Shown: positions 58,627 through 60,433 of the stretch, piece by piece | Layout: every line of letters begins with the position of its first letter | Numbering within the stretch: position 1 is the first letter of the stretch | Assembly: GCF_009914755.1 (NCBI RefSeq) | Contig: NC_060947.1 | Origin: the human T2T-CHM13v2.0 reference genome, Homo sapiens | Length of the DNA: 64,000 bases | Direction: 5' to 3' (one strand) | Program-made: the position numbers and the translations under genes | The notes under the pieces: model-generated | Told to the model about the DNA's origin: nothing | Seen by the model: only the letters and a program-made list of their open reading frames with translations | Database searches by the model: none

Positions 58627-58766
58627 CCCAGTAAAACAGCCATCATTCCACTGTCACGTTTCTAGTCACACACAGCTAAATATGACAATGATGATGAAAG
58701 TTAATAACCACTAACAGATCCTCTGAGTAGAGTGTCAGAGGTTACTTCATAAAAATGATACTGCCT

Positions 58767-59541
58767 GTGCACATGTACCCTAGAACTTAAAGTATAATAA
58801 AAAATAATAAAATAAAATAAAATAAATTAAAAAAAATAAAACATATGTATGTGGCCAGGCGCGGTGGCTCACGCCTGTGATCCCAGCACTTTGGGAAGCC
58901 GAGGCAGGCGAATCACGAGGTCAGGAGTTCGAGACCAGCCTGGCCAACATGATGAAACTCCGTCTTTACTAAAAATACAAAAATTAGCCAGGCGTGGTGG
59001 CGGGCGCCTGTAATCCCAGCTACTCAGGCGGCTGAGGCAGGGGAATCGCTTGAAACCAGAAGGTGGAGGTTGCAGTGATGAGCCGAGATCACGCCACTGC
59101 ACTCCAGCCTGGGCAACAAGAGCAAAACTCCGTCTCAAAAAAACAAAAAACAAAACAAAACAAAGTATGTATGTGACTCTCTTAACAACTAAACCTCCTC
59201 TATTAGGAATCTTACTACTGTGTTACTTCATCTCAAATCTTTTAATAGTCTCCTGGTGACTTTGAGAAGTATCATGCAGAAAACCTCTGCATTTTCACTC
59301 CACTTTGAAACTGGTCATGTCTTGGGAACTGACTCATTCTACTAATCATATAGCAAAGAGAAAAAACATAGTTCTTAGTTTAAAACATGAGCAATTCATT
59401 GTGTCACATATCTTTGTGTTTTGGTAAATTCATCATTAGAGAGAGAGAAAAAACATCAATGGAGTTTAAACCCTTTGTCTCGTTAAGTCGCAAAAAAAAT
59501 TATTGGACTAAATAAACCACGCAGTGTCAAGTTCAAAAAAG
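58767..59541 (+). mobile_element. L1 3' stub plus transduced flank (Alu at ~58853-59165 and unique DNA), bounded by a 13-bp TSD
   Basis: gtgcacatgtaccctagaacttaaagtataataa and A-rich tail; AATAAA at 59511; A6 at 59535-59540; aatgatactgcct at 58754-58766 and 59542-59554. Confidence 0.78.
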
Positions 59542-59543
59542 AA

Positions 59544-60433
59544 TGATACTGCCTTCACAAAAATTGTAAGAGTGAGAAAATTATGACATTGAAAGAGATC
59601 TGATCTAACCAACCCCTATCTTGCCTTTAACCTCCAAATTACCCTTAATCATTCCTCGGCCTGGCCCAAGAAAACTTTGAGAGACATTTGTTTTATAGTT
59701 TAAAAGATAATAGACCACAGGTGTCCAATCTTTTGGCTTTCCTGGGCCATATTGGAAGAATTGTCTTGGGCCACATATAAAATACACCAACACTAAAGAT
59801 AGCCGATGAGCTAAAAAATAAAAATCACAAAAAAAGTCACAATAAGTCTCATAATGTTTTAAGAAAGTTTACAAATTTGTATTGGGCCGCATTCAAAGCC
59901 ATCCTGGGCCGCATGTGGCTCATGGGCTGTGGGTTGGACAAGCTTATAATAGCCTTCTGCAAAACTCAACCACCTTTGTAAAGCTGAGAGGCCACAAGGT
60001 TAGGAGGATATGAGGAGGCTAAAATCTGCTAACATGTAGACATAAAAGATTTCCAGCTATTATTCCGGAGGTCACAAGATTTGGAACTCCCCAATTACTC
60101 CCGCAGATAATATCACCATTATAGAACCTAAGATTGGCCTTTTGAGGCATTTTTTCAAGTTTTTGCATTTCTGACGACCAGTGGCTCCACCAGGACTGGC
60201 CAACCTCCACCAACCGGTCCTATGGCCCCACCCAGAAGCTGAATCCATGGCCTACCAAACTATCCTTGAAAAACCCTACCCTCCAAATTTTCGGAGATTG
60301 ATTTGAGTAATAACTCCATCTCCCATGTGGCATGGCCAGACTTACATCAATTAAACTCTTTATTGCAATGCCGTGGTCTCAGTGAATTGGTTTTGACTGT
60401 GCAGTGGGTGGGAATAACCCACTGGCTGGTTAC
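59544..60433 (+). mobile_element. LTR8-family solo LTR
   Basis: TG...CA; gagaaaattatgacattgaaagagatctgatctaaccaacc and gattgatttgagtaataactccatctccc motifs. Confidence 0.72.
59718..59946. mobile_element. MER30-type hAT DNA transposon nested in the LTR
   Basis: caggtgtccaatcttttggct ... gggttggacaagctt ends resemble recalled MER30. Confidence 0.75.

What the first reader, a model, noticed from the sequence alone, without database searches (positions are those of the whole stretch)
58751..59554. Candidate L1 3' transduction: imported DNA between 13-bp TSDs at the first bases of an LTR8
Seen in order: TSD aatgatactgcct (58754-58766, after cat|aaaaa, endonuclease-like), ~30-bp L1PA 3' stub, A-rich tail, Alu with its own short TSD (tatgtatgt), ~370 bp unique DNA, AATAAA (59511-59516), 18 nt, A6, TSD again (59542-59554). 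The TSD includes the LTR's first bases (tgatactgcct), so the LTR start appears twice, 788 bp apart. This is the expected structure of a read-through L1 transcript polyadenylated in its flank and 5'-truncated. Prediction: 59165-59534 has a parent copy elsewhere, downstream of a source L1, and the Alu may have been moved passively. Repeat annotation would list the pieces separately.
Basis: partly seen in the sequence, partly recalled or inferred. Interest (0 to 1): 0.7.

Follow-up and report, generated by a model that had tools for sequence, protein, structure and literature searches.

The report
LINE-1 transduction whose source has vanished
About 700 bases of chromosome 8, including a whole Alu repeat, sit copied inside an intron of ZNF674 on X behind a short LINE-1 tail; they were likely carried there by a LINE-1 element that is no longer present on chromosome 8, which is a known and fairly ordinary kind of event.

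Summary
The structure is real. A 772-bp insert (58767-59538) lies between 16-bp target-site duplications (13 bp exact) that include the first 11 bases of an older LTR. It reads: 33-nt L1 3' end, A-rich tail, 698 bp of foreign DNA, short A remnant. The foreign DNA has one other detected copy in the genome, on contig C8 (chr8 by length; 118,851,875-118,852,570, + strand, 95% identical). That copy includes the same Alu with both of its TSDs, so the Alu was moved passively. The parent continues without poly(A), so chr8 is the donor. But no sense-strand L1 lies in the 14.4 kb upstream of it. The shared DNA begins exactly at a TT|AAAA endonuclease site on chr8, where a source L1's own TSD would begin. 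X-chr8 divergence (1.7-2.0% per lineage, CpG masked) matches the youngest L1s with this tail. Best reading (0.75): a 3' transduction from an L1 that inserted at chr8 roughly 17-20 My ago (inferred) and never fixed in our lineage. Such 'parentless' transductions are described in dogs and non-human primates. This is a new member of a known kind, with no sign of function.

The parts
58751..58766 (+). 5' target-site duplication (16 bp, 13 exact); a copy of 5 flank bases plus the first 11 bases of the host LTR; nick CAT|AAAAA, a degenerate L1 endonuclease site
   Evidence: both TSD copies carry T at LTR offset 3, where 0 of 10 other LTR copies do
58767..58799 (+). 33-nt 3' end of a primate L1 (TAG-type tail), 5'-truncated; 58766 also matches L1 (1-nt microhomology)
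   Evidence: 3,394 exact genomic copies, control 0; 34/34 match to the end of L1 locus L035, whose ORF is LINE-1 ORF2p; 69 of 70 loci have T before the 33-mer
58800..58837 (+). Internal A-rich tail (38 nt), inferred to be the poly(A) of the source L1
   Evidence: sequence; no counterpart on chr8
58838..58853 (+). Start of transduced chr8 DNA; begins at the TT|AAAA site of chr8 (118,851,875); includes the Alu's 5' TSD (58844-58853)
58854..59165 (+). Full-length Alu (body 58854-59136, then A/AAAAC tail), copied from the chr8 Alu; AluS by recall
   Evidence: 20 mismatches in 283 aligned bases to the chr8 Alu; shared 3-bp insertion and shared substitutions not in most of 54 other Alus
59166..59175 (+). 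Alu 3' TSD (10 bp exact), also present on chr8
59176..59535 (+). Unique chr8 flank DNA, 95% identical to C8:118,852,217-118,852,569
   Evidence: 2 of 2 candidates: self and C8, E 2.4e-156
59511..59516 (+). AATAAA, inferred polyadenylation signal used by the read-through RNA; present on chr8 too; 18-19 nt before the end of homology
59536..59538 (+). Remnant of the terminal poly(A) (3-4 A before the TSD); chr8 continues with unrelated sequence
59539..59554 (+). 3' target-site duplication
59544..60434 (+). Older host LTR-type repeat (LTR8 family by recall); start tested, end at ...TTACA read from the sequence and not tested
   Evidence: 1,066 candidates, 40 scored, 39 non-self at 82-86%; for the 5' boundary

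Best explanation
The insert is a 698-bp copy of chr8 DNA (Alu plus flank) joined behind a 33-nt L1 end and bracketed by one target-site duplication, and it likely arose as a 3' transduction from a full-length L1 that once sat on chr8 and is now absent there. Shown: chr8 is the donor, the Alu was copied with both of its TSDs, the shared DNA starts at a TT|AAAA site and ends 18-19 nt past AATAAA, and chr8 has no source L1. Inferred steps: (1) an L1 of the youngest TAG-tailed kind (L1PA4/5 by recall) inserted at that TT|AAAA site, just 5' of an older Alu; (2) its RNA read through its own poly(A), the Alu and 360 bp of flank to AATAAA; (3) target-primed reverse transcription at the LTR's first bases on X copied the RNA and stopped 33 nt into L1; (4) the short X copy fixed while the chr8 allele with the full-length L1 was lost, about 17-20 My ago.
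For: Parent found, one other copy only. Direction: X has tail and TSD; chr8 runs on without them and lacks the outer TSD sequence. The junction falls on a TT|AAAA site; such sites are 12 in 9,075 bp of the chr8 region and the looser YAAAA 74 (0.8% per base). A transduced piece is expected to begin with the source's TSD (PMC3024322 Fig. 7 legend, passage). The order L1 end, internal poly(A), flank, poly(A), TSD is the documented one (PMC6425141 passage). Age agrees: 22-26 differences in 641 CpG-masked sites, 1.7-2.0% per lineage (CI 1.1-2.9), against terminal branches of 1.8-2.2% for the five youngest unpaired TAG-tailed L1s among 39. Sources missing from the reference are common: 17 of 18 in dogs (PMC7980453); 23 'no donor' calls in macaque, orangutan and chimpanzee (PMC4862182).
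Against: The source L1 itself is not seen: the only L1 sequence in 16 kb of chr8 is a 73%-identical antisense fragment 1.2-2.2 kb upstream. No sibling transduction from the same source was found. The terminal poly(A) is only 3-4 A. With a looser CpG rule the pair looked younger (14/598 to 18/644, 2.3-2.8% pairwise) than the youngest TAG cluster (4.3%), P about 0.03-0.08; the tension went away only with matched masking. The pair is clearly younger than the median of the L1 sample (3.35% per branch, P <= 0.02), so only a late source fits. The junction is ambiguous by one base (T at 58837 also matches chr8). No annotation or expression data for chr8 were available.
Confidence: 0.75

Rival explanations
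1. Two nested insertions on X: an L1 stub inserted first with the outer TSD, and later a polyadenylated chr8 RNA (Alu plus flank) inserted into the stub's A tail with an A-rich TSD of its own.
For: A tails are endonuclease targets. The bases just before the chr8 piece (A8T, 58829-58837) resemble those just after it (59535-59544) with one mismatch. Most TAG-tailed L1s in the sample are older than the X-chr8 split.
Against: That resemblance is low-complexity (the tail repeats AAAAT many times). Poly(A), inner TSD and leftover tail would have to fit in 9 bases. It still needs a promoter for a +strand chr8 RNA, and none is seen in 14.4 kb. Its 5' truncation would have to land by chance on the TT|AAAA site (about 0.1-0.8% per base).
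Confidence: 0.1
2. Template switch in one event: reverse transcription began on a polyadenylated chr8 transcript and jumped, through AAAA microhomology, to the poly(A) of an unrelated L1 RNA.
For: Explains one outer TSD and the absence of an L1 on chr8 without allele loss; the AAAA at the junction offers microhomology. L1 chimeras with other RNAs are numerous (452 Alu/L1 in PMC13174262).
Against: The described chimeras have the foreign RNA 5' and L1 3' (Fig. 7 legend; the 4 Table S4 rows seen); here the order is reversed. It needs an independent +strand transcript; the one chr8 gene located (exostosin GT64 exons, 76 kb away) is on the - strand. Other genes were not searched for.
Confidence: 0.08
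3. Same transduction, but the source L1 was fixed on chr8 and later removed precisely, by recombination between its TSDs or by conversion from an empty allele.
For: Leaves the same empty site as non-fixation (one search shows one clean TT|AAAA with no residue).
Against: Precise removal is rare compared with loss of an unfixed allele (recalled); nothing in the sequence calls for it.
Confidence: 0.07

Closest known systems
'Parentless' LINE-1 3' transductions (dog, PMC7980453; class 1 'no donor L1' in non-human primates, PMC4862182)
   Same: L1 3' end plus transduced flank between TSDs; the flank maps to a locus with no adjacent L1; explained by a source that segregates or segregated in the population.
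   Different: Those cases are polymorphic daughters of recent, possibly still segregating sources. This one is an old insertion (about 17-20 My, inferred), so the source allele would be extinct. It also carries a whole older Alu.
Canonical L1 3' transduction with an extant source (PMC6425141, PMC9311842, PMC3024322)
   Same: Anatomy: TSD, L1 end, internal poly(A), source TSD and flank, AATAAA within 10-40 nt of the end, poly(A), TSD; length 698 bp lies within the 7-997 nt range reported in PMC9311842.
   Different: No source L1 at the donor locus in this assembly.
Alu 3' transductions as annotated in CHM13 (386 highest-confidence events; bioRxiv 10.1101/2021.07.12.451456)
   Same: Alu plus unique flank plus A tail plus TSD, matching a parent Alu with the same flank; a TSD-finding pipeline could file this locus there.
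   Different: The insert also holds the Alu's own 5' TSD and an L1 end upstream of it, runs through TTTT, and ends behind AATAAA, so the Alu was cargo.
Alu/LINE-1 chimeric insertions (PMC13174262)
   Same: Alu and L1 sequence inside one TSD pair, same orientation.
   Different: Order reversed (L1 is 5' here), and the Alu is a copy of one genomic Alu with its flank rather than a fresh Alu RNA.

Membership tests
Parentless L1 3' transduction | One TSD pair flanks the whole insert | tested here: met
   16 bp with 1 mismatch, 13 exact
Parentless L1 3' transduction | Insertion at an L1 endonuclease-like site | tested here: met
   CAT|AAAAA at 58750/58751, degenerate against TT/AAAA as given
Parentless L1 3' transduction | L1 3' end and internal poly(A) 5' of the foreign DNA, same strand | tested here: met
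Parentless L1 3' transduction | Foreign DNA maps to another locus that lacks the tail and outer TSD | tested here: met
   C8:118,851,875-118,852,570
Parentless L1 3' transduction | Polyadenylation signal 10-40 nt before the end of the copied DNA | tested here: met
   AATAAA 18-19 nt before the end, present in both copies
Parentless L1 3' transduction | Terminal poly(A) before the 3' TSD | tested here: inconclusive
   only 3-4 A outside the 16-bp TSD
Parentless L1 3' transduction | Copied DNA begins at a plausible source TSD (endonuclease site) with no L1 at the donor | tested here: met
   junction at chr8 TT|AAAA; no sense L1 in 14.4 kb upstream
Parentless L1 3' transduction | Age of the copy fits the activity period of the L1 type | tested here: met
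   1.7-2.0% per lineage against 1.8-2.2% for the youngest TAG-tailed L1s; a looser CpG rule gave mild tension
Parentless L1 3' transduction | Empty X site in outgroup species | not testable with these tools
   no other primate genome is held (no relatives)
Canonical L1 3' transduction (extant source) | Full-length or 3' L1 directly upstream of the donor flank | tested here: not met
Alu-mediated 3' transduction | Insert starts at or within the Alu, with nothing from upstream of it | tested here: not met
   16 nt of upstream chr8 DNA and an L1 end lie inside the outer TSD
Alu-mediated 3' transduction | Transcript ends at a polymerase III terminator (run of T) | tested here: not met
   copied flank passes TTTT at 59240-59243 and ends after AATAAA; terminator rule is recalled
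Alu/L1 template-switch chimera | Foreign RNA 5', L1 3' | tested here: not met
   order reversed
LTR8 (host repeat) | Best match to the LTR8 family model | not testable with these tools
   no Dfam/Repbase library; repeat nature and 5' TG boundary shown; name recalled

The most novel reading that the evidence does not exclude
The insert is the only surviving record of an extinct active L1 allele of the early ape population, and fixes its insertion point to the base (C8:118,851,875). Cases of this shape, with an L1 stub of a few tens of bases ahead of an Alu that keeps both its TSDs, may account for part of the several hundred 'Alu 3' transductions' annotated in CHM13. A genome-wide screen for such junctions would map lost L1 sources and measure how often hot L1s failed to fix.
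Probability: 0.3. Interest if true: 0.5.

Novelty: new member of a known kind. Interest (0 to 1): 0.27.

Why it matters
The single locus matters little: it is intronic and antisense to ZNF674, no annotated exon overlaps it, and nothing points to function. Its value is as a clean example. It shows an Alu duplicated as cargo with both TSDs, which repeat annotation would count as an independent insertion or as an Alu-driven transduction. It also gives a base-exact, testable prediction of where a lost source L1 sat, which gibbon, orangutan or other ape assemblies could confirm through incomplete lineage sorting.

Tried and rejected
Reverse direction (X as donor): rejected; only X has tail and TSD. 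Independent Alu insertion on X after the transduction: rejected; the parent has the same Alu, TSDs and shared changes. Segmental duplication or DNA-level copy: rejected; homology stops at both ends at RNA-type landmarks and the flanks are unrelated. Intermediate or sibling copies: none found; one search gave 6 matches, of which 4 are weak hits more than 1.1 kb past the poly(A) site; one search gave 5 matches at up to 1 mismatch, 2 exact (X, chr8); the other three (L031-L033) were not compared for flank, but searches found no flank match there. These DNA searches skip common words, so a missed copy is possible. Old antisense L1 fragment on chr8 as source: rejected (wrong strand, 73% identity). 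The exostosin mRNA as donor transcript: rejected (opposite strand). Pfam scan of the L1 ORF gave 0 families; the PDB search settled it. A one-mismatch search meant to sample the TAA-tailed L1s listed only exact matches, so that class rests on 2 sequences. A bacterial promoter scan is irrelevant here and was not used. Szak 2003, Pickeral 2000 and the Science version of the CHM13 repeat paper were not held; earlier scan findings were not open.

Full report
Observation. The window shows, in order on the + strand: TSD 58751-58766, a 33-nt L1 end 58767-58799, a 38-nt A-rich tail, an Alu between 10-bp TSDs (58844-58853, 59166-59175), 360 bp of unique DNA, AATAAA at 59511-59516, 3-4 A, and the TSD again at 59539-59554. 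The 13-mer core occurs twice in the window. Repeated 13-mers at this spacing are common here because of Alus (1,055 overlapping hits), so the TSD is judged by its position, which coincides with both ends of the insert.

The L1 stub. The 33-mer has 1,694 forward and 1,700 reverse exact matches in the genome, and the reversed control has none. In the 20 copies printed it is followed by an A-rich tail. One copy (L035) has an upstream frame that matches LINE-1 ORF2p in the PDB at E about 1e-126, although Pfam returned no family for it. The base before the stub (T, last base of the TSD) also matches L1 in 69 of 70 loci, a 1-nt microhomology.

The target. The repeat behind the insert has many copies (1,066 candidates, 40 scored, 39 non-self at 82-86%). 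In 10 of those copies identity to the window begins at 59544 (10 of 10) and is at chance level before it. Both TSD copies carry a T at LTR offset 3 that none of the 10 has, so the 5' TSD was copied from this LTR after it had aged. The name LTR8 is recalled, as are L1PA4/5, AluS, MER30 and EXT1 below; no repeat library was available.

The parent. A genome search with 59176-59541 found 2 of 2 candidates: the window and C8:118,852,217-118,852,569, 95%, E 2.4e-156. Homology extends 5' through the Alu and both of its TSDs to window 58838 (58837 also matches) and C8:118,851,875, and 3' to 59535; overall 35 mismatches in 689 aligned bases, with unrelated sequence on both sides. The two Alus share a 3-bp insertion and five non-CpG substitutions absent from most of 54 other Alus; some of these may be subfamily marks. 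The Alu was therefore copied, not inserted anew. chr8 continues past the end point with no A run and does not contain the outer TSD, so it is the donor. No third copy was found, with the caveat that these searches skip common words.

The missing source. There is none: in 16 kb of C8 (14.4 kb upstream of the junction) the only match to an L1 3' 1.5 kb is a 73%-identical fragment on the opposite strand, 1.2-2.2 kb upstream, and the stub has only 8-mer chance hits in the nearest 10 kb. However, the copied DNA starts at TTTT|AAAAC. TT|AAAA is the L1 endonuclease motif (passages), and a transduced piece is expected to begin with the source's TSD (PMC3024322, Fig. 7 legend). Such sites are 12 in 9,075 bp of this region, or 74 for the looser YAAAA, so a random end point would seldom land on one. 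The one chr8 gene I located (GT64 exons at 118,928,170-118,941,389, EXT1 by recall) is 76 kb away on the - strand and cannot supply the RNA; I did not search for other genes.

Timing. I sampled 70 of the 3,394 L1s with this tail, all from the first 77 Mb of C1. Among the 43 with at least 450 aligned bases (779 pairs), non-CpG divergence had a median of 6.0% and, apart from one pair at 0.9%, a minimum of 3.4%. By the same rule the X-chr8 pair was 18/644 (2.8%), or 14/598 after leaving out A-rich stretches, against 4.3% for the eight youngest L1s; this is mild tension (P 0.03-0.08 for 18/644). That rule over-masks the Alu, because it also drops changes that create CpG. With ancestral CpG columns masked on both sides, the pair has 22-26 differences in 641 sites, 1.7-2.0% per lineage (CI 1.1-2.9). 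In a tree of 41 sequences (39 TAG-tailed, 2 TAA-tailed) the five youngest unpaired TAG copies have terminal branches of 1.8-2.2%, the two TAA copies 1.1 and 1.8%, and the median is 3.35%. The event thus fits the last TAG-tailed L1s and not the typical one. An age of about 17-20 My is my inference from a recalled rate near 0.1% per My. PMC13174262 (section 9, read whole) places L1PA4 and most L1PA5 insertions at its time point 5, after or at the ape-monkey split, so the insert should be ape-specific.

Mechanism. Most likely (0.75) an L1 inserted at the chr8 TT|AAAA site 16 nt upstream of an older Alu, read through to the next AATAAA, and produced this 5'-truncated daughter on X; the daughter fixed and the source allele did not. 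Shown are the donor, the passive Alu, both end points and the absence of the source; the source's existence, its loss and the date are inferred. Rivals are a nested second insertion into the stub's tail (0.10), a template switch (0.08) and later precise deletion of a fixed source (0.07). Against the favoured reading stand the unseen source, the lack of siblings and the very short terminal poly(A).

Comparison with print. Transductions without an L1 at the donor are described: 17 of 18 in a dog genome comparison, called 'parentless' (PMC7980453, passages), and 13, 9 and 1 'no donor' calls in macaque, orangutan and chimpanzee (PMC4862182, passages). A polymorphic donor absent from the human reference is shown in PMC6425141 (passages). 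PMC9311842 (passages) gives lengths of 7-997 nt. The CHM13 repeat preprint (passages) reports 183 L1 3' and 386 Alu 3' transductions; its table S13 was not seen, so this locus may already be listed there. PMC13174262 (passages, sections 9 and 12, two supplement searches) catalogues chimeras in the opposite order; a search of its six supplements for the approximate hg38 position (recalled offset) hit only a chr4 row in the places shown, and I saw 4 chrX rows of Table S4 (30 of 171 occurrences). PMC2768975 and PMC4083085 were seen as passages only and carry no weight. A search for ZNF674 with transduction and retrotransposon returned one unrelated review (listing only); two searches for lost or extinct sources in primates returned 1 and 0 papers, and one for incomplete lineage sorting returned an SVA paper (listing only). 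Szak 2003 and Pickeral 2000 were not held and are known to me only by recall.

Verdict. It is a new member of a known kind. It lies in an intron of ZNF674, antisense to the gene, with no annotated exon or element (hub table), and I found no sign of function. Interest 0.27.

Noticed in passing
L059 / L060 (G000:C1, tails at 64,249,721 + and 64,267,014 -): Two inverted TAG-tailed L1s 17 kb apart differ by only 1.5% over 679 bp, while the next closest pairs differ by 4.6% or more; suggests gene conversion or an inversion between inverted L1s.
   Followed up: no
window 58854-59136 against L002:1175-1456: The X Alu keeps 16 CpG, the chr8 parent 11; 54 other Alus have 2-16. About 2 against 8 CpG losses since copying, Fisher P 0.06: possibly low germline methylation at the X site, not significant.
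   Followed up: partly
window 59716-59945: A roughly 230-bp insert interrupts the host LTR, with ATAATAG near both ends; MER30-like DNA transposon by recall.
   Followed up: no
window 60449-60790: An Alu right behind the LTR end has an internal tandem duplication of 42 bp (60604 / 60646).
   Followed up: no
window 35883-37246 (+) and 6553-8035 (-): Two L1 3' fragments in the window, 94% and 89% identical to L035; the first has the younger TAA-type tail.
   Followed up: partly
window 58751-58755 and 60435-60439: The host LTR has no clear 4-5 bp TSD of its own (AAAAA before, GCAAA after the presumed end); the end may be misplaced or the TSD decayed.
   Followed up: no
L002:1866-1894 (C8, about 35 nt past the transduction end): A second AATAAA lies just downstream of the site used; no longer sibling copy using it was found.
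   Followed up: partly
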